DNA from: a virus
Length of the DNA stretch: 64,000 nt
Strand: one strand, 5' to 3'
IMG/VR virus record: IMGVR_UViG_3300022073_000094
The notes under the pieces are model-generated. The model did not search any database. It had not been told where the DNA came from and was given only the letters and a program-made list of their open reading frames with translations. Position numbers and translations under genes: made by a program. Positions 15,730-64,000 of this stretch are shown one piece after another; position 1 is the stretch's first letter; the number at the start of each line of letters is the position of its first letter.

Positions 15730-16030
15730 CTAATTTTTAATTCACTTATTTTATGTTGATTAATTAACTATAAAATTATTTTATTATGTTCTTTAATAAG
15801 AGTAAACAGGCGTACTAAAATTAATTCTAATTTATTGTAATTTATGAGAGCCTGATTCTCTTAATTCAATCATATATCTTATTAATAATTAAGTACTTAA
15901 AATTCTTTTAATTTAACATAGTTGCAACAATAAAAAATTAAACAGCTAAAAAGATATCTAGCCGCTTAGTATCTTTGATTTTTATTTTTTAATCTTTTTT
16001 CTAATTCAACATATTCTTCAATTGTTTTAA

Positions 16031-16406
16031 GGTATTGAAAATGTAACTAAAATATTTACTTAATATTAGAAAAATAATACTAGTTGAATATTTAGCTATT
16101 TTAACTGCATTTATAATGACGAAGTCATTTTCTTTGTCGTTAAATGCTTTAACTCTTAGAAAAAAGAAATGGTCATTTTACAAAGCATCACTAACGCGTA
16201 TATACCAAATACGCTACACTTAAGCTGGTCTGCGAAACAGACATCGCTCGTGAATTTTTAATAATAAAATAATCAAATAGTCTTTTTAATCTAATTAATT
16301 AACGTTTTCGATAATGCAAATCATTATGATGTTACTCTTAATATAAATCAAATCAACTATATTAATATATTATCATTATTCTATCATGAAGTAAATAACT
16401 TATATT
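16031..16406 (-). ncRNA. TnpB-less copy of the IS607 right-end/omega RNA with its own promoter (copy 1)
   Basis: about 375 bp inverted copy of 53981-54354; 3' ~230 nt homologous to 50300-50534 (CCAGCTTA, TTGGTATA.GCG.TTAG, TTAACGACAAAG, GTTCAACTAGTATT, AAGTAAATATTTTA, ATACC end). Confidence 0.7.
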
Positions 16407-16417
16407 AATTTAATTAA

Positions 16418-17182
16418 CTATATATTTTCACACTTTCCATTTGTATTTGTATTTCTATTTGTATTTTTATCTTTCAATCTTTTTTCTAATTCAACATATT
16501 CTTCAATGGTTTTAATGTTTTGATTATCATTTAAATAACAATAGTAAAATTGCAATGCTTCATCTTTTGATAAGTATTTAGGCTTTAATATTTTATCACT
16601 TAAAATTGTTTTAATATCACTATCTTCATATTTGACCTGATCAAATTTTTTATATTGATCTTTATCGACTTTTAATTCATATGATTGAACTGTAATTAAA
16701 TGATTATAAACGCCAAGTTCATCATATATATCTTTTAACACAACATCATGATTTTTAATTAATTCATGTAATAAATAAACTTTCTCGTAATCATCTTTAT
16801 CAACATATTCTTCATTTAATTTATCTTGTAATTGATTTACTTCATCATTAATAACATTATTCAAACGTTTATAATCGAGATAGATCAAATATATAAATAG
16901 AAACATTGAAGGTATGATTGAACTTAACAAATCCATAATAATAAAATAATTAAAATATTGGTTAATAGGACCCACTAAATAATTAATTACAGGCACAAGA
17001 ATTAAAGGTGTAACTATAAACATAAATGAAATTAAAATAAGTAGATAATTAACAAATAATAAACTATAAAGATGATTATATTTCTTATATACTTGCGTAT
17101 ATTTCATGTCTTTGATAAAATCAATAAAATTGTTATAATTATTTTCTTCTAACAAATTTTGCTTAACAATTTGAAATTCCAT
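16418..17182 (-). CDS. 2-TM membrane protein, expanded paralog family
   Basis: two TM helices followed by YEKVYLLHELIK. Confidence 0.8.
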   Translation of the reverse strand: MEFQIVKQNLLEENNYNNFIDFIKDMKYTQVYKKYNHLYSLLFVNYLLILISFMFIVTPLILVPVINYLVGPINQYFNYFIIMDLLSSIIPSMFLFIYLIYLDYKRLNNVINDEVNQLQDKLNEEYVDKDDYEKVYLLHELIKNHDVVLKDIYDELGVYNHLITVQSYELKVDKDQYKKFDQVKYEDSDIKTILSDKILKPKYLSKDEALQFYYCYLNDNQNIKTIEEYVELEKRLKDKNTNRNTNTNGKCENI

Positions 17183-17883: not shown

Positions 17884-18071
17884 TTTATTTGCTTCCTTTC
17901 AATCTTCTAATTTTATTTTATATAAAAATAATATCATAATACTAATTTTAAGTAAATAATAAAGATCTTACTTGATAACATGTAAGATCTCTATAGTAAG
18001 ACAATCAAATCAAATTAATAAAACTAATATGAAATTATATCTTAACTTTATTTATAATGTTTGACTTACTA

Positions 18072-18109
18072 GGTATTGAAAATGTAACTAAGATATTTAC
18101 TTAATATTA
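18072..18109 (-). repeat. 38-bp remnant of the IS607-type right end
   Basis: GGTATTGAAAATGTAACTAAGATATTTACTTAATATTA, near-identical to 16031-16068. Confidence 0.8.
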
Positions 18110-18294
18110 AAATGATAAATTTGATCTCCATCTTTATCATCATTTGCAATTTTTAATAAGTTTTTTAATTCGTTTTTATTATGATTTAACAAATCAGATG
18201 TAAATTCATCTCGTCTAAAATCAATGGCATACAACCAACTATTTTCTTGTAAAGAACTTATTTTACCTAATTTTTTTGCCATTACTATTTTCAC
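18097..18294 (-). CDS. small hypothetical protein; stop codon lies inside the right-end remnant
   Basis: GTG start with RBS AGGAAGG. Confidence 0.55.
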   Translation of the reverse strand: MKIVMAKKLGKISSLQENSWLYAIDFRRDEFTSDLLNHNKNELKNLLKIANDDKDGDQIYHFNIK

Positions 18295-41446: not shown

Positions 41447-42289
41447 ATGAATACAGAAGTATTACGATTAATGAGATTTATAGAGAATCTTAATACACAA
41501 TATTTTAAGGAGATTAATATCTCTCGTTCTCAGCTTTATGAGATCAAAAGAGATCCGCGTTTACTTTATAAATCACGATTAGAAACAGTTTTAAAGTTAT
41601 ATGATTATATGCATCAGCATGAAGAATTAAAACATGAACAAGTTAAAAATGTGATTGATGATGAACAATTTCAAAGCGCTTTAAAAGATGAAGAAGAAAC
41701 TATTAAAGCATTAAATTTAGATCATTATGTTGGCGTTGACTTAGGCTCTAAACATCTTATTGCAGCATCAAATAATGATTTAAGTCAAACATTTATTGCT
41801 AAAACTCAAAATATTAATCGTCTGACTAATATTTATAATAGAGAGCGTAAACAAGCACAAAGATCAGAATTTAAAACGCTTGCAACAACCTTATGTAATA
41901 AATTTACAACTCAAGTTGAGGGTGAGATTAATTATCAAGTTAATCAATTGCTTAAAGAGTTTGATGACGATGCAATCTTTGTTGTAGGTGATCAATGCTT
42001 TAGAAATGGTCAAGCAGTAAAAGATCAAACTTCATCTAATTATATTATTTGGTCATTAATTATTAAGCAATTTAGACGTAAGCTTGAGGATCAAAATAGA
42101 TTAATTATTATTAATGAGTCGGGTAGCTCAATTAAATGTCCAAATTGTCATAAATCTAAAAAATCAAATCGCACAATTGATAATCGATTTCATTGTAAAA
42201 GTTGTGGCTTTAAACATGAATCTGACGACGTTGTTGCAGCTGTAAATATTTTAAATAAATATTTAGCAAAAAACATGGACAAATTATAG
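41447..42289 (+). CDS. HTH fused to a truncated TnpB-like RuvC/zinc-ribbon domain
   Basis: N-terminal ISRSQLYEIK HTH; VGVDLG (RuvC-I), INESGSS, CPNC..CKSC, DDVVAAVNI (RuvC-III); only 280 aa; no tnpA or IS ends; family promoter. Confidence 0.75.
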   Translation: MNTEVLRLMRFIENLNTQYFKEINISRSQLYEIKRDPRLLYKSRLETVLKLYDYMHQHEELKHEQVKNVIDDEQFQSALKDEEETIKALNLDHYVGVDLGSKHLIAASNNDLSQTFIAKTQNINRLTNIYNRERKQAQRSEFKTLATTLCNKFTTQVEGEINYQVNQLLKEFDDDAIFVVGDQCFRNGQAVKDQTSSNYIIWSLIIKQFRRKLEDQNRLIIINESGSSIKCPNCHKSKKSNRTIDNRFHCKSCGFKHESDDVVAAVNILNKYLAKNMDKL

Positions 42290-48355: not shown

Positions 48356-48541
48356 AAAGAATAAAATTATTTTAAGAGATCTTATTTATTTAAGGTCTCT
48401 TAAAATAATAGCTTTTTTTAATATATATTTTAAATATACTTCTAAAAAGAAAAATGATATAATCTAAATATTTTAAACAAAAGTATGTAATCTAATATAA
48501 ATTTGTATTATAATGTATTTATAAGGGGGTTATAAATACAA

Positions 48542-49126
48542 ATGAAAGCATCAGAAGTAATGAAAACATTAAGAATTTCACGTTCTTCTTTAGCTAATTA
48601 TAAGGCTGACGGAAGAATAAGAGCAACTAAACGATATAATGGGCTATATGATTATTGTGATGAAGATGTTTATCGATTAATAAATCAAAATCAGCCTAGA
48701 ATGAATGTGATTTATTCTAGAGTTTCTACTCGTAAACAAAAGAAAGATTTAGAAAATCAAGAAAATCTTCTTAAACAATATTGTTTAAATCAAGGTCTTA
48801 TTATTAATAGAAGTTATAAAGATATTGATTCAGGTATTTCTTTTGAAAATCGTAAAGAATTTTTTGAATTGCTAGATTTAGTAATTAATTATAAAGTTGA
48901 TAAAATAATTATTACTTATAAAGATCGATTAAGCAGAGTAGGTTTTGAATTATTTAAAACTTTATTTGAAAAATTTGGAACGGAGATTATTGTTATTTCA
49001 GAGTTAGGATCTGAAAAGATTGATTCAGAAGAAATTTTTGAAGAAATCGTTTCTTTATTGCATTGCTATTCAATGAAATTATATACTAAGAGAAAAAATA
49101 AGCAGATTAAGGATCTAATTAAATGA
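48542..49126 (+). CDS. tnpA: IS607 serine transposase
   Basis: N-terminal MerR-like HTH, IYSRVSTRKQKKDLENQ catalytic motif, KDRLSRVGF. Confidence 0.93.
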   Translation: MKASEVMKTLRISRSSLANYKADGRIRATKRYNGLYDYCDEDVYRLINQNQPRMNVIYSRVSTRKQKKDLENQENLLKQYCLNQGLIINRSYKDIDSGISFENRKEFFELLDLVINYKVDKIIITYKDRLSRVGFELFKTLFEKFGTEIIVISELGSEKIDSEEIFEEIVSLLHCYSMKLYTKRKNKQIKDLIK

Positions 49127-50331
49127 AATTAGTTGAAATTCATAAGATTAATCGCAAGTCAAAATATTATTCTTTGTTTGAAGAGTTATGTAAAGAGTCA
49201 AATTCTTTATATAATCAAGCTTTATTTAAAGTTAAGCAATCTTTAAATAGAGAAAATAAATGGATGTTTTATTCAGATCTTAATCAATTTTGTAAAAATC
49301 GACCTGATAAATATAATAATTATAGGCGTTTACCCGCTCAATGTTCTCAACAAACTCTTAGACTATTAGATCAAAATTTAAAAGCATATCGTAATAGTAT
49401 TAAAGATTGGTCTAAAAATAAGTCTAAATATCTCGGTAAGCCAAAGTTTCCTAATTTTAAAAAATCTGGAGGCTTATTTCAGCTTATCTTAACAAGTCAA
49501 CAAGTGAAATATGATAGAGAATCATTACTTCTTAGATTTCCTAAAAATTTTAATTCATTTACTTTAAAATTAAGACAAAATCATACGACAAAAATTAATC
49601 AAGTTAGAATATTACCTAAAATTGATTGTTTTAAAATTGAGATTGTGTATGAAATAGAAGCAATTACAACTCAGAATCTTCATCATAATGTTGCATCAAT
49701 AGATCTTGGTCTTGAAAATTTAACTACTTTGGCGTTTTCAAATTGCAAAAGACCTTTAATTTATAAAGGAAGACGTCTTATCAAGATCAATCATAATTAT
49801 AATAGACAAATTAAGAAATATCAGTCAATTTTAAATAAAACTCAAAAGAAACAAAGAAGCAGTAAAAGATTAAGATCATTATATTTAAAAAGAAATAATA
49901 AAATAGAAGATCAAATGCATAAGATAAGCAAATCAATAGTTGATTGTCTTTTAGAGAATGACATCTCAATATTAATTATTGGGCATAACGTTAATCAAAA
50001 GCAAAAATCGACGTTAAAGAATTTTGTATCTTTGCCAATCTTCAAATTAATTCATTTCTTAAAATATAAATGTGAAATTAGAGGTATAAAAGTAGTTGAT
50101 ATAAATGAGTCTTATACATCAGGTACTTCTTTTTTAGACAAAGAAGATCCGATAAAAGAAAATTACAATAAGTTTAGAAGAATTAAAAGGGGCTTATTTA
50201 AGTCAAATAAAGGGCGCTTAATCAATAGCGACGTTAATTCTGCTTATCAAATTATGAAAAAATTCGATAAAAATTTAAATATTCAATATAATCATCAAAT
50301 TTTTAATCCACGAGTGATGTTTATTCAATAA
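49123..50331 (+). CDS. tnpB: TnpB RNA-guided nuclease
   Basis: SIDLG (RuvC-I), NESYTS, NSDVNSA (RuvC-III). Confidence 0.92.
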   Translation: MKLVEIHKINRKSKYYSLFEELCKESNSLYNQALFKVKQSLNRENKWMFYSDLNQFCKNRPDKYNNYRRLPAQCSQQTLRLLDQNLKAYRNSIKDWSKNKSKYLGKPKFPNFKKSGGLFQLILTSQQVKYDRESLLLRFPKNFNSFTLKLRQNHTTKINQVRILPKIDCFKIEIVYEIEAITTQNLHHNVASIDLGLENLTTLAFSNCKRPLIYKGRRLIKINHNYNRQIKKYQSILNKTQKKQRSSKRLRSLYLKRNNKIEDQMHKISKSIVDCLLENDISILIIGHNVNQKQKSTLKNFVSLPIFKLIHFLKYKCEIRGIKVVDINESYTSGTSFLDKEDPIKENYNKFRRIKRGLFKSNKGRLINSDVNSAYQIMKKFDKNLNIQYNHQIFNPRVMFIQ

Positions 50332-50554
50332 ACCAGCTTAGGATAGCGCTTTTGGTATAAGCGTGTTAGTTTAAATGATATAAAACGAAAGTTCTCTTAG
50401 ATAGTAAAGTAATTAAGTTTGAAAAGCTATTAAGTTATCATTAAACGACAAAGCAAATCGTTTTAACGTTAGAATGTTCAACTAGTATTTTAATTTTGAT
50501 ACAAAGTAAATATTTTAATCAGATTTGTGATACCTTAAGCTACCTTATCAATTT
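50300..50554 (+). ncRNA. predicted TnpB omega RNA (scaffold to 50534, guide from the flank)
   Basis: about 200 nt non-coding between the tnpB stop and the right end; conserved blocks shared with the orphan copies. Confidence 0.65.
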
Positions 50555-51088
50555 TTATCACCTCAAAAAGCAACTGACAATAATTCTCTCTACAAGTTTG
50601 ATATTAGTCACAATCAATATATTCAAGCTGTCATTTTTAATAATCAATCATCTATGAGTCTAACATATGACTTTGATTTGTTTCATAGAAGTAGAAGCTA
50701 TAGTTTTAGTGAAAATCTAATTCCTTATAATTTTAAGAGATTCGATATTATTTATAATGATCAATCTTATATTAACAATTTTGATGAAGATCATTTAGTC
50801 AAATCTCAATTTATAGATTTCATAAATCAATATGATGCATCACCACAAACACTTATTGATTTTTATATTCAATTAGTCAAACATAAACGACCTTCGTATG
50901 ATAAAATGTGTGAGATTATTGATCATTATGAAGAAGCAAAAGAAGAGTTTAAAAATATTAAAGTTGCAAATCGTAATGAGACACTTAATAAAATGCTTGA
51001 AGATAATCAAGATGTGATTGATCAAAATGATGATGATTATTTGACAACACGGAAAGAAGTTAAAAATTTACTTCATTCATTAAAATAG
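50535..51088 (+). pseudogene. 5'-truncated gene interrupted by IS607 (ORF track 50654..51088 is its distal part)
   Basis: the frame stays open from the IS end (LKLPYQFLSPQK...) into the ATG at 50654; no RBS at 50654. Confidence 0.6.
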
Positions 51089-53356: not shown

Positions 53357-53969
53357 TATGTTTATTACATTTGAAGGCGGTGAAGGAGCAGGCAAGTCAA
53401 CAATCGCTAAAAGATTGAGACATTATTTAGAAAATAAAGGCTATGAAGTGATTTTGACGCGTGAGCCAGGTGGAACTGAGTTTGCTGATAGAGTCAGAGA
53501 TTTAATTATGAAAGAAAATATTAGCGCATATGAAGAAATGATGCTTTTTAATGTTGCACGACTTAATCATTTGAAGCGAGTCATTTTACCCGCTTTAGCA
53601 AATAATAAAATTGTATTATGTGATCGTTTTATTGATAGTTCTAGAGCTTATCAAGGTATTTTAGGTGACTGTACTTATAATGAATATCAAAAACTTGAAC
53701 AAGTGAATGAAACAATTGCAAATAGTGTTGATTTAATTGATACAACTTTTTATTTTAAAATTGATCCAGAGATTGCATTAAATCGAATTGCAAAAAATAA
53801 TCGTGAAACAAATCGTTTTGATAAAAAAGACTTAGATTATCATTATCAACTTCAAACAGCTTATGAGCAACTTATTAGTGTTGATAGAAGTAATAGATTT
53901 GTAGTCATAGATGCTGAACAAGATGAAGAACAAGTGTTACAACAATGTATTGATCATTTAAATTTATAG
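53349..53969 (+). CDS. tmk: thymidylate kinase
   Basis: FITFEGGEGAGKST, TREPGGT, CDRFIDSS. Confidence 0.95.
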   Translation: MNNMFITFEGGEGAGKSTIAKRLRHYLENKGYEVILTREPGGTEFADRVRDLIMKENISAYEEMMLFNVARLNHLKRVILPALANNKIVLCDRFIDSSRAYQGILGDCTYNEYQKLEQVNETIANSVDLIDTTFYFKIDPEIALNRIAKNNRETNRFDKKDLDYHYQLQTAYEQLISVDRSNRFVVIDAEQDEEQVLQQCIDHLNL

Positions 53970-53980
53970 TCAAATAAATC

Positions 53981-54354
53981 AATATAAGTTATTTACTTGA
54001 TGGTACGAATGATAATAAAATATAAATATAGTTGATTAGATCTATATTAAGAGTAACATCATAATGCGGAGCATTATCGAAAACGTTAATTAATAGAGAT
54101 TGAAGAGACTATTTTCTTATTTATTATTCTTATTAAAAATACACAAGTGATGTTTGTATCGCAAACCAGCTTAAGTGTTACGTGTTTGGTATATGCGTGT
54201 TAGTGATGCTTTGTAAAACGACCATTTCTTTTTTCTAAAAGTTAAAGCATTTAACGACAAAGAAAATGACTTAGTCATATTTAAAATAGCTAAATATTCA
54301 ACTAATATTATAATTTTAGTATAAAGTAAATATTTTAGTTACATTTTCAATACC
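53981..54354 (+). ncRNA. TnpB-less copy of the IS607 right-end/omega RNA with its own promoter (copy 2)
   Basis: inverted homolog of 16031-16406; ends CAATACC; TTTACT...TGATAAT promoter-like 5' part. Confidence 0.7.
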
Positions 54355-63459: not shown

Positions 63460-63878
63460 TGCTCTATGTCTCATCTCGCTCTACTTCTTGCTTTACACTC
63501 TCTCTCTCTTTCAGCTTTAGCCCTTTTTTAGTATATATTTTAAATATATTTTTATAATAAAATGAGGCTTGACTAATGCATAAAAAAAAGCATCCCTTTC
63601 ATAATTGATTATATAAAAGGGATTACTTAGATTTGTAGTTGATTATTATTACACAATTTACATTCAAAGTATAATTATTTTATCATGCTGTGAATGTAAT
63701 GTACACAAACATCTTCGCACTCTCATCTCAGCTTTTATCATCGCTGAAATCGACCGTAAGTGCGTAGAGATTGTTCTCGTTTGAGTTAAATTGATAAGCA
63801 AATAAATAGCTGTATACAGCGTCGATAAGAAATGTTAAAATGATATTAAATTTAGAGATAAAAGGAGCTATGTGAAGT

Positions 63879-64000
63879 ATGGAAGAACAATTACAAAATA
63901 TTCAAGAAGCGTTAGTGAATCGTTTTGACGCAACTAAAGAGGTTGCAAAAGCAATTAAAGAGGCGTTAGAATCATTAGCAGATCAAGCACCTCAATTAAT
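63879..64000 (+). CDS. partial CDS MEEQLQNIQEALVNRFDATKEVAK..., runs off the window
   Basis: RBS AAAGGAG, open to the window end. Confidence 0.65.
   Translation, partial: MEEQLQNIQEALVNRFDATKEVAKAIKEALESLADQAPQL

What the first reader, a model, noticed from the sequence alone, without database searches (positions are those of the whole stretch)
15991..16406. Orphan omega-RNA-like gene whose guide position matches the neighbouring gene 39/40
Seen: 16031-16406 (minus strand) keeps the IS607 right-end scaffold but has no tnpB, and carries a promoter-like 5' part. The 40 nt after its ...CAATACC end (16030 down to 15991) match 16515-16476 of the adjacent membrane-protein gene at 39/40, with the mismatch at guide position 8. 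Known: TnpB omega RNAs take their guide from the sequence flanking the right end. Inference: this may be a trans-acting guide RNA aimed at a family paralog or at the IS-free allele of a competing phage. The match itself may simply be the stump of an interrupted paralog (LKTIEEYVELEKRLKNKNQRY*).
Basis: partly seen in the sequence, partly recalled or inferred. Interest (0 to 1): 0.72.

Follow-up and report, generated by a model that had tools for sequence, protein, structure and literature searches.

The report
Gene-less mobile TnpB guide-RNA element
This is a real, roughly 390-base jumping element in a phage-like genome that carries only a promoter and the guide-RNA scaffold of an IS607/TnpB transposon. 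Its near-perfect match to the neighbouring gene is most likely a leftover of local gene rearrangement, not an evolved target.

Summary
Window 16420→16031 (minus strand) is a protein-less element with three parts: a phage-type promoter, a conserved leader, and a ~230-nt scaffold. The scaffold is homologous to the right end (omega/reRNA) of the IS607 at 48464-50534 (serine-recombinase tnpA plus tnpB). Across 7 copies, 37 scaffold base pairs are 97% kept and 8 show compensatory changes.

The element is or was mobile. An 85% copy at 53967-54354 is a clean insertion that seven related metagenomic contigs lack, and a further copy sits at a third site in another contig.

The 39/40 match is real (chance expectation 0.02), but comparison explains it. 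Related genomes have gene A followed by a paralog B. Three relatives carry the same element at the same left junction, directly after A's stop codon. In the one relative whose contig reaches the right end, the flank is the 5' end of B. In the window B is gone. The flank is a chimera: about 45 nt of an A-type gene end joined to the last codons of B.

So the "guide" was created by secondary rearrangement. Its site in gene A has a mismatch near the start of the guide and lacks the TA^T context seen at all four mapped insertion sites.

Stand-alone omega RNAs are already known, and this scan has met them in other phages.

The parts
16031..16420 (-). Orphan element A: a gene-less IS607-derived element. 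It runs from TAG (the stop codon of gene A) to ...CAATACC.
   Evidence: The boundaries come from the clean insertion of the sister copy B and from identical left junctions in L014, L015 and L018. It is 85-88% identical to copies B and L017. No ORF longer than 35 aa lies inside it.
16367..16395 (-). Promoter-like site: TTTACT, 17-nt spacer, TG-n-TAATAT.
   Evidence: Read directly from the sequence. It belongs to the window-wide promoter-like repeat families D2/D3. The -35 and -10 boxes are kept in all five orphan copies despite substitutions. Function is not shown.
16263..16366 (-). Conserved leader. It holds a hairpin (ATAATGC, variable loop, GCATTAT, about 16327-16311) that overlaps a 9-codon mini-ORF (M-x-x-IIENVN).
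   Evidence: Alignment of five orphan copies gives 88% mean identity; the hairpin loop varies while the stem is kept. The leader is absent from the autonomous IS607 copies.
16031..16262 (-). Omega/reRNA-like scaffold. It starts at the homolog of the last ~30 nt of tnpB and ends at ...ATACC.
   Evidence: Homology to the right ends of the IS607 copies in the window, L005 and L016. The consensus fold has 37 pairs, 97.3% paired, with 8 pairs changed on both sides; 0 of 500 shuffles reach this.
15966..16030 (-). Right flank, the 'guide position': a chimeric gene stump. About 45 nt are A-type (16030 to about 15986) and the rest is the B-type tail ending in the stop codon TAA (15968-15966).
   Evidence: Alignment with the ends of A and B in relatives. 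The stump's first ~49 nt are identical to the 3' end of L014's gene A, apart from one G/A difference at position 46. From 16030 onward the window is 94% identical to L006:2129-2459, which is the end of B and its downstream DNA. None of 10 B protein clusters has an A-type C-terminus.
15939..15968 (-). Intrinsic-terminator-like hairpin plus T-run, inherited from paralog B.
   Evidence: one terminator-like site found, against 0.1 expected. It is conserved downstream of B in relatives.
16476..16515 (-). The matching segment inside gene A (codons ...IKTIEEYVELEKRL...). It is preceded by ...CAAAACA.
   Evidence: 39/40 match. It has the same sense as the guide, so only DNA could be targeted, not the mRNA (read from the sequence).
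16418..17182 (-). Gene A: a 254-aa predicted membrane protein of a tandem paralog family. Its stop codon is supplied by the element.
53967..54354 (+). Orphan element B: the sister copy, a clean 388-nt insertion between the thymidylate kinase gene and ORF 54373. Its first bases, TAG, supply the kinase gene's stop codon.
   Evidence: Empty site AAATTTA^TAAGGAGG in L007-L013. 85% identical to element A.
18071..18118 (-). Right-end stub C: the last ~48 nt of the right end, which truncates the homolog of a 136-aa gene.
   Evidence: 92% identical to the right end of orphan A. Flank homology to L001/L002 stops at 18109.
48464..50534 (+). Autonomous IS607: tnpA serine recombinase (48542..49126), tnpB (49123..50331) and a right-end scaffold (about 50300-50534).
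   Evidence: Pfam hits to Resolvase, OrfB_IS605 and Cas12f1-like_TNB. Boundaries set against L013. The D194, E329 and D370 motifs are conserved with the L005 TnpB.

Best explanation
The feature is a stand-alone, gene-less derivative of an IS607-family transposon. It has three parts: a phage-type promoter, a ~100-nt conserved leader, and the ~230-nt TnpB guide-RNA (omega/reRNA) scaffold, which ends exactly at the element's right boundary.

Shown:
- It has discrete ends (TAG...ATACC).
- It occurs at three or more different sites in this phage group.
- Each insertion is present in some relatives and absent in others.
- It inserts at TA^T, as does the one autonomous IS607 copy whose insertion site could be mapped.
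- Its RNA helices are kept by compensatory changes.

Inferred:
- It is transcribed from its own promoter.
- The transcript is trimmed to scaffold plus about 16-20 nt of flank and is used in trans by the IS607-encoded TnpB (49123..50331), as published for stand-alone omega RNAs. The guide would recognise the element-free version of its own insertion site and so favour retention or homing.
- It was moved by the serine recombinase TnpA acting in trans.

The copy at 16 kb entered directly after the stop codon of gene A, at the A/B gene junction, in an ancestor shared with L014, L015 and L018. Its original flank was the 5' end of paralog B, which is still seen in L015. In the window's lineage at least two later rearrangements followed. 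One placed the 3' end of an A-type gene next to the right end. The other was a homologous A/B crossover in the shared ...RLK(D/N)KN... region, which deleted B. These left a chimeric 21-codon stump.

The 39/40 match to the neighbouring gene is therefore a by-product of paralogy and local rearrangement. This copy's guide no longer matches the empty site. It probably does not cut gene A either, because of the mismatch at position 6/8 and the non-canonical CA^TT context.
For: Scaffold homology and fold: (37 pairs, 97.3% paired, 8 pairs changed on both sides, 0 of 500 shuffles as high; the slid controls give 30-44% paired).

Discrete mobile unit:
- Copy B is a 388-nt insertion absent from L007-L013.
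- Element-free A/B junctions occur in L001-L006.
- The same element follows the stop of A in L014, L015 and L018.
- A further copy sits at a third site in L017.

Insertion context is TA^TN at four of four mapped sites, while the right-end junction always reads CC-TN.

Origin of the flank:
- The L015 flank is the start of B.
- The window flank is A-type and then B-type.
- It continues at 94% identity into the DNA downstream of B.
- It is identical to L014's A allele over ~49 nt apart from one G/A difference at position 46.
- No B allele with an A-type end was found among 10 clusters.
- A natural A/B fusion protein, P0010, shows that A/B crossovers recur.

Partner nuclease: the TnpB is full length with conserved catalytic-type motifs.

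Literature:
- Stand-alone mobilised omega RNAs work in trans with compatible effectors (PMC10691335).
- PATE-like gene-less elements encode omega RNAs (bioRxiv 10.1101/2023.03.14.532601).
- IS607 inserts by dinucleotide recombination, and its TnpB distinguishes the empty site from the right-end junction (bioRxiv 10.1101/2023.08.09.552727).
- Single TAM changes abolish cleavage by an IS607 TnpB (PMC11061315).
Against:
- The left ~160 nt of the orphans has no detectable similarity to the left end of either autonomous IS607. Mobilisation by this TnpA is therefore inferred, not shown.
- The central part of the orphan scaffold differs from that of the autonomous copies, so compatibility with the window's TnpB is uncertain.
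- The order and mechanism of the rearrangements that made the stump cannot be resolved. The similarity of TCAATACC|TT to TCAAAACA|TT at the junction (D17) could mean microhomology-driven duplication or a true insertion into an A-type gene.
- The TA^T rule rests on only four sites in a 27% G+C genome.
Confidence: 0.68

Rival explanations
1. Re-aimed weapon. The rearranged flank gives a working guide that, together with TnpB in trans, cuts gene A of co-infecting relatives. The resident gene A would be spared by its C at position 8 and/or by its CA^TT context. The orphan would then act as a phage-versus-phage exclusion or marker-conversion device.
For: - The guide region matches L014's gene A perfectly for ~45 nt. 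It matches other A alleles with 1-3 mismatches.
- Some alleles (L001-L004, L006) carry the canonical TA^TT context at exactly this site.
- The single difference from the resident gene lies in the TAM-proximal part. There, pairs 1-14 contact the protein in an IS607 TnpB, and that TnpB is reported to tolerate mismatches less well than Cas9 or Cas12a (PMC11061315).
- The element has its own conserved promoter, and an intact TnpB is present.
- Stand-alone omega RNAs act in trans (PMC10691335).
Against: - No sampled allele combines a canonical TA^TT context with a perfect match.
- The C/A polymorphism at position 8 also occurs in genomes that lack this guide (L006, L015). It is therefore not a specific escape mutation.
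- The flank is fully explained as a rearrangement relic.
- Only one genome is known with this flank.
- Nothing shows expression.
Confidence: 0.1
2. Inert relic. The element is a decaying, no longer mobile or loaded leftover of IS607 activity. It would be kept only because it supplies the stop codon of gene A and is harmless; the conserved structure would reflect recent common descent.
For: - The left part shows no similarity to the left ends of the autonomous IS607 copies.
- The central scaffold domain diverges from that of the autonomous copies.
- A plainly dead right-end stub lies 2 kb away at 18071-18118.
- With few, related sequences, covariation counts can be inflated (caveat stated).
Against: - Copies at three different sites are 85-88% identical over their full length. 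Their ends are intact and the promoter boxes are kept.
- Compensatory changes occur among the orphans themselves, for example GTCTG/CAGAC versus GTTTG/CAAAC in copy B.
- Insertions are precise and polymorphic among close relatives, which argues for recent mobility.
Confidence: 0.2
3. Mobile promoter. The part under selection is the outward-reading promoter, which restores transcription of genes downstream of the insertion. On this view the scaffold is passenger sequence.
For: - Copy B splits a 15-nt intergenic gap between two co-oriented genes, and no terminator separates its promoter from ORF 54373.
- The promoter boxes are conserved in all copies.
Against: - In copy A the transcript would meet a terminator about 65-90 nt past the element, before the tRNA cluster.
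- This view does not explain the conserved, covarying 230-nt scaffold that ends exactly at the boundary.
Confidence: 0.1

Closest known systems
Stand-alone omega RNAs of OMEGA systems (Altae-Tran et al. 2021, as summarised in PMC10691335) and PATE-like gene-less IS200/IS605 elements (Meers et al., bioRxiv 10.1101/2023.03.14.532601)
   Same: A mobilised guide-RNA scaffold with no effector or transposase gene, found in the same genome as an effector-containing copy. The guide is taken from the right flank, and use by TnpB in trans is presumed.
   Different: This one belongs to the serine-recombinase (IS607) branch and lives in a phage-like genome. It carries its own phage-type promoter and a conserved ~100-nt leader that the autonomous copies lack. 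It also supplies the stop codon of the upstream gene at both sites in the window.
IS607-family TnpB with its reRNA (ISXfa1, bioRxiv 10.1101/2023.08.09.552727; ISFba1 / RAGATH-18-derived RNAs, PMC11061315)
   Same: A serine-recombinase tnpA plus tnpB partner element is present. The scaffold overlaps the 3' end of tnpB and ends at the right boundary. Insertion occurs next to a fixed short motif, and the right-end junction differs from the empty site just upstream of that motif (CC-TN versus TA-TN here; CGG versus GGG in ISXfa1).
   Different: There is no Rfam hit, RAGATH-18 included. The context is AT-rich (TA^T) where the published TAMs are G-rich. The scaffold is about 230 nt against ~144 nt. 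The TnpB lacks CxxC zinc-finger cysteines, and its RuvC-II glutamate appears to be shifted toward the C-terminus (read).
TnpB-driven transposon homing / restorative homing (Meers et al.; review PMC13565253)
   Same: For copy B, and for the L015 copy, the flank equals the element-free site carried by relatives. That is the arrangement needed for guide-directed cutting of empty sites and copying of the element.
   Different: The window's copy A has lost this relationship. Its flank is a rearranged gene fragment, not the empty site.
TldR-type domesticated TnpB with a fixed guide RNA (bioRxiv 10.1101/2023.11.30.569447)
   Same: A guide RNA expressed outside an active transposon and aimed at a specific gene.
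   Different: No nuclease-dead TnpB lies next to it; the 280-aa HTH-TnpB-like protein is 25 kb away. The element is mobile and polymorphic. The match lies inside a coding region near its 3' end, not at a promoter.

Membership tests
TnpB omega/reRNA of IS607-family elements | The scaffold is homologous to the right end of a tnpB-bearing IS607 and begins within the 3' end of tnpB. | tested here: met
   Two homology blocks to the window IS607 (75% and 79% identity), and 72-73% identity over ~240 nt to the IS607 copies in L005 and L016. Homology starts about 30 nt before the tnpB stop codon.
TnpB omega/reRNA of IS607-family elements | The 3' end of the scaffold coincides with the transposon boundary, so that the guide comes from the flank. 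| tested here: met
   Empty sites in L007-L013 place the boundary directly after ...ATACC. The same end is seen in L015, L017 and the IS607 copies.
TnpB omega/reRNA of IS607-family elements | The secondary structure is conserved and supported by covariation. | tested here: met
   Four helices with 37 pairs, 97.3% paired, 8 pairs changed on both sides; 0 of 500 shuffles reach this and the slid controls give 30-44%. The central domain could not be aligned between orphans and autonomous copies.
TnpB omega/reRNA of IS607-family elements | The RNA is expressed, processed and bound by TnpB. | not testable with these tools
Only promoter-like and terminator-like sequences can be reported.
Non-autonomous (MITE/PATE-like) derivative of an autonomous IS | No transposase or effector gene inside the element. 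| tested here: met
   The longest internal ORF is 35 aa. tblastn with TnpA and TnpB finds nothing near 16 kb or 54 kb.
Non-autonomous (MITE/PATE-like) derivative of an autonomous IS | Several copies at different sites, with presence/absence differences among relatives. | tested here: met
   Three sites: the A/B junction (window, L014, L015, L018), tmk/ORF135 (window only; empty in 7 contigs), and the L017 site.
Non-autonomous (MITE/PATE-like) derivative of an autonomous IS | Both ends match the ends of the autonomous partner, so that its transposase can act in trans. | tested here: inconclusive
   The right end matches. The left ~160 nt gives no BLAST hit to the left end of either IS607. Only short AT-rich resemblances can be seen by eye.
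Non-autonomous (MITE/PATE-like) derivative of an autonomous IS | The same target-site signature as the autonomous partner. | tested here: met
   The orphans inserted at TTTA^TA, TATA^TG and AATA^TA; the window IS607 inserted at GATA^TT. This is a small sample from an AT-rich genome.
RAGATH-18-derived reRNA and other Rfam families | The sequence reaches the family's covariance-model threshold. | tested here: not met
   No omega- or RAGATH-type hit at gathering thresholds over the whole window, nor at E-value up to 10 on 15900-16500.
TldR-type domesticated guide RNA | The guide is encoded beside a nuclease-dead TnpB homolog and aimed at a promoter. | tested here: not met
   The neighbours are membrane-protein paralogs and tRNAs. 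The match lies in the 3' coding part of gene A.

The most novel reading that the evidence does not exclude
A rearrangement has re-aimed a stand-alone, promoter-driven IS607 guide RNA at a conserved segment of a phage membrane-protein gene. With TnpB supplied in trans, it cuts the versions of that gene carried by co-infecting relatives. The resident copy would be protected by one mismatch near the start of the guide and/or by a non-permissive adjacent motif. That would be a natural step from selfish homing toward a CRISPR-like inter-phage weapon.
Probability: 0.1. Interest if true: 0.75.

Novelty: new member of a known kind. Interest (0 to 1): 0.4.

Why it matters
This is a well-resolved natural example of a gene-less TnpB guide-RNA element moving within a phage population. 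It has exact ends, filled and empty sites, and a likely insertion motif. It also shows one case in which the guide was changed by rearrangement of the flank, with no transposition involved. That route to new guide specificities bears on how stand-alone guides, and ultimately CRISPR-like arrays, could arise. It also gives a concrete, cheap test system: one TnpB, three or more natural guides, and known natural target variants. The headline claim, a guide aimed at the neighbouring gene, is most likely incidental.

Tried and rejected
- Public collections. Nothing was found in the phage collection by DNA. A right-end pattern found nothing in viral contigs or species genomes. A protein-pattern search for gene A in viral contigs also found nothing. 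No whole genome is held for this window. Relatives came only from ENA/Logan contigs, reached through protein look-ups, and from one metagenome scan.
- RNA families. Rfam gave no omega-RNA-type family at either threshold.
- Solved structures. A sequence search of the PDB with the TnpB gave no hit at E-value 0.001 or better. The catalytic residues were therefore judged from motif conservation alone.
- "The stump is simply the C-terminus of B in this lineage." Rejected as the simplest reading, because all 10 B clusters end in the B-type ...IKSL(D/E)E... sequence and none is A-type.
- Antisense regulation of the gene A mRNA. Rejected, because the guide and the mRNA have the same sense.
- "The guide targets the IS-free allele." Rejected for this copy, because the element-free alleles have the start of B at the junction.
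- Left-end comparison. Looking for left-end similarity between the orphans and the autonomous IS607 copies led nowhere.

Full report
**1. What is in the sequence**

The window has 26.6% G+C and looks like a large phage. It carries tRNAs, a tmRNA and many copies of one promoter-like motif.

On the minus strand the order is as follows:
- Gene A (16418..17182; 254 aa; no Pfam family) ends in TAG at 16420-16418.
- From that TAG down to ...CAATACC at 16031 lies a stretch with no ORF longer than 35 aa.
- The next 40 nt (16030→15991) match 16515→16476 inside gene A at 39/40.

The similarity extends over 66 nt at 91%. A 22-nt version with up to 3 mismatches occurs only at these two places, against 0.02 expected by chance. 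The observation therefore stands.

**2. The IS607 partner and the other copies**

- At 48464-50534 lies an autonomous IS607-type element. It has a serine-recombinase tnpA (Pfam Resolvase) and a 402-aa tnpB (OrfB_IS605 plus Cas12f1-like TNB).
- The TnpB keeps IDLG (D194), INE-S-YTSG (E329) and NSDVN-AYQI (D370). A 68%-identical TnpB from a related contig keeps them too.
- The usual RuvC-II glutamate position is not occupied. This fits the class with a C-terminally shifted glutamate described in bioRxiv 10.1101/2023.08.09.552727. That assignment is an inference.
- The 16-kb stretch matches the right end of this IS in two blocks. One of them overlaps the last ~30 nt of tnpB.
- A second orphan copy lies at 53967-54354 on the plus strand, 85% identical to the first. 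A 48-nt right-end stub lies at 18071-18118.

**3. The scaffold is a conserved structured RNA**

Seven scaffolds were aligned: orphans A, B, L015 and L017, and the IS607 copies of the window, L005 and L016.
- They share four helices with 37 pairs, of which 97.3% of cells pair.
- Eight pairs show changes on both sides.
- None of 500 column shuffles reaches these values, and sliding the partner columns drops pairing to 30-44%.
- One compensatory change separates two orphans from each other: GTCTG/CAGAC in A against GTTTG/CAAAC in B.
- The central domain differs between orphans and autonomous copies and could not be aligned.
- No Rfam family matches.

**4. It is a discrete mobile element**

Copy B:
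- Seven related contigs (L007-L013) have the thymidylate kinase gene followed after 15 nt by the 135-aa gene. Their junction reads AAATTTA^TAAGGAGG.
- The window has the same junction with a 388-nt insertion, TAG...CAATACC. This fixes both ends of the element.

Copy A and its relatives:
- The same element, with the same left junction directly after the stop of gene A, is present in L014, L015 and L018.
- L001-L006 lack it there.

A fourth copy sits at a third site in L017. That site adjoins DNA homologous to the last 200 nt of the window.

All five orphan copies share several features that the autonomous IS607 copies lack:
- the -35 and -10 promoter boxes;
- a leader hairpin with a variable loop;
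- a 9-codon mini-ORF.

Four mapped insertion sites read TTTA^TA, TATA^TG, AATA^TA (orphans) and GATA^TT (window IS607 against L013). The right-end junction always reads CC-TN. ISXfa1 behaves in a parallel way. There the empty site (GGG) is a TAM, while the right-end junction (CGG) is not (bioRxiv 10.1101/2023.08.09.552727). In other IS607 elements the TAM lies next to the left end (PMC11061315).

**5. Why the flank matches the neighbouring gene**

In relatives, gene A is followed by a paralog B of 220-227 aa that ends ...KNKNQRY.

In L015 the element's right flank is the 5' end of B. The start codon of B has lost its A, and B is internally deleted between two copies of a 14-nt repeat. This is the expected primary state: an insertion at the A/B junction whose guide equals the empty site.

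In the window the flank differs:
- The first ~45 nt are of the A type.
- The next ~20 nt, and everything downstream, are of the B type. From 16030 on, the window is 94% identical to L006:2129-2459.
- The flank's first ~49 nt are identical to L014's gene A apart from one G/A difference at position 46.
- None of 10 B protein clusters has an A-type end, so the stump is a true chimera.
- The A-to-B switch lies in the shared ...AGATT(A/G)AAA... region.
- Homologous A/B crossovers are seen elsewhere: P0010 is an A/B fusion.

The junction between the right end and the A-type sequence lies at ...ACA^TT in the window's own gene A. In the A alleles of L001-L004 and L006 the same site reads ...ATA^TT, which is the canonical insertion context. 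Three routes to this junction remain possible:
- a second insertion into an A-type gene, followed by recombination between element copies;
- a recombinase-mediated or microhomology-mediated exchange at that site;
- either of these followed by the A/B crossover that removed B.

I cannot decide between these routes. All of them make the match a by-product of paralogy.

**6. Could it still act on gene A?**

- The guide has the same sense as the gene A mRNA, so only DNA targeting is conceivable.
- The resident site differs from the guide at position 8 from the element end. That is position 6 if the first two bases are the recombination core.
- The resident site has CA, not TA, before the core.
- Published IS607 TnpBs lose activity with single TAM changes. 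Heteroduplex pairs 1-14 contact the protein, and ISFba1 TnpB is reported to tolerate mismatches less well than Cas9 or Cas12a (PMC11061315).
- Self-cutting is therefore unlikely.
- Among sampled relatives, L014's allele is a perfect match but has the CA context. L001-type and L006-type alleles have the TA context but carry a mismatch.
- The C/A difference at position 8 also occurs in genomes without this guide, so it is not evidence of escape.
- The weapon reading is not excluded, and I give it about 0.1.

**7. Comparison with what is known**

Stand-alone, evidently mobilised omega RNAs that work in trans with compatible effectors have been described (PMC10691335). So have gene-less PATE-like elements that encode omega RNAs (bioRxiv 10.1101/2023.03.14.532601).

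This scan has also met orphan TnpB guide modules in several other phage genomes, including one where solo scaffolds abut truncated paralogs. Those are unchecked notes, and I used them only as leads.

This case is a new member of that kind. Four particulars are worth recording:
- it belongs to the IS607 branch;
- it has its own phage promoter and leader;
- it donates a stop codon to the upstream gene;
- its guide was changed by rearrangement of the flank.

**8. Limits**

- No expression or binding data could be obtained.
- Mobilisation by TnpA and loading onto TnpB are inferred.
- The insertion motif rests on four sites.
- The relatives are short metagenomic contigs, and two of them (L014, L018) end inside the element.

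Noticed in passing
window 48464-50534 and 50654-51088; L013:4815-5062: Compared with L013, the autonomous IS607 replaces 248 nt. The lost DNA includes the ribosome-binding site, the start codon and the first 74 codons (with a membrane segment) of a 258-aa gene. ORF 50654..51088 is the 5'-truncated remainder. The right flank (TTAAGC...) is intact, so the missing DNA lies on the left-end side.
   Followed up: partly
window 18071-18118 and ORF 18097..18294: A 48-nt right-end stub truncates the homolog of a 136-aa gene (L001:976-1386) to 65 aa. About 1.1 kb holding the rest of that gene and two more genes of L001/L002 is missing here. L005 has a complete IS607 upstream of the same 233-aa gene, but its flanks do not align with the window's.
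   Followed up: partly
L017:802-1190 (minus strand); window 63802-64000: A further orphan copy lies about 80 nt beyond DNA that is 95% identical to the last 200 nt of the window. The window's own genome may therefore carry a third orphan just past its right edge.
   Followed up: no
window 16300-16335 (minus strand), 54060-54095 (plus strand); L014, L015, L017: The orphan leader holds a hairpin (ATAATGC, 3-5 nt loop, GCATTAT) whose loop differs in every copy. The same stretch reads as a 9-codon ORF, M-x-x-I-I-E-N-V-N-stop, preceded by AAGAG. Whether the RNA hairpin or the peptide is conserved is open.
   Followed up: partly
window 16219-16242, 54152-54175, 43411, 51120, 58691, 61882, 63413: The first scaffold hairpin (GTCTG-N4-GCAGACC) shares its core with the ~65-bp palindromes at module boundaries that another reader noted. 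Seven matches with up to 3 mismatches were found, against 0.00 expected. Whether the two are related is unexplained.
   Followed up: partly
P0010 (ENA contig, not fetched): A 249-aa protein is a natural fusion of the N-terminal half of A with the C-terminal half of B, joined at the shared EKVYLLHELI motif. Unequal crossovers within this tandem paralog family therefore recur.
   Followed up: no
window 41447-42289: A 280-aa protein joins a short N-terminal region to the C-terminal half of TnpB (VDLG, INESGSS, two CxxC, DDVVAAVNI). It reaches the Pfam threshold only for Cas12f1-like_TNB and aligns with the C-terminal half of the IS607 TnpB. No omega-like scaffold was seen next to it.
   Followed up: partly
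window 16386-16400 and 16052-16066 (minus strand): The -35 region at the orphan's left end (AAGTTATTTACTT) is an inverted near-copy of the conserved right-end motif AAGTAAATAT. It could be a recombinase-binding repeat, or merely the phage promoter word appearing twice.
   Followed up: no
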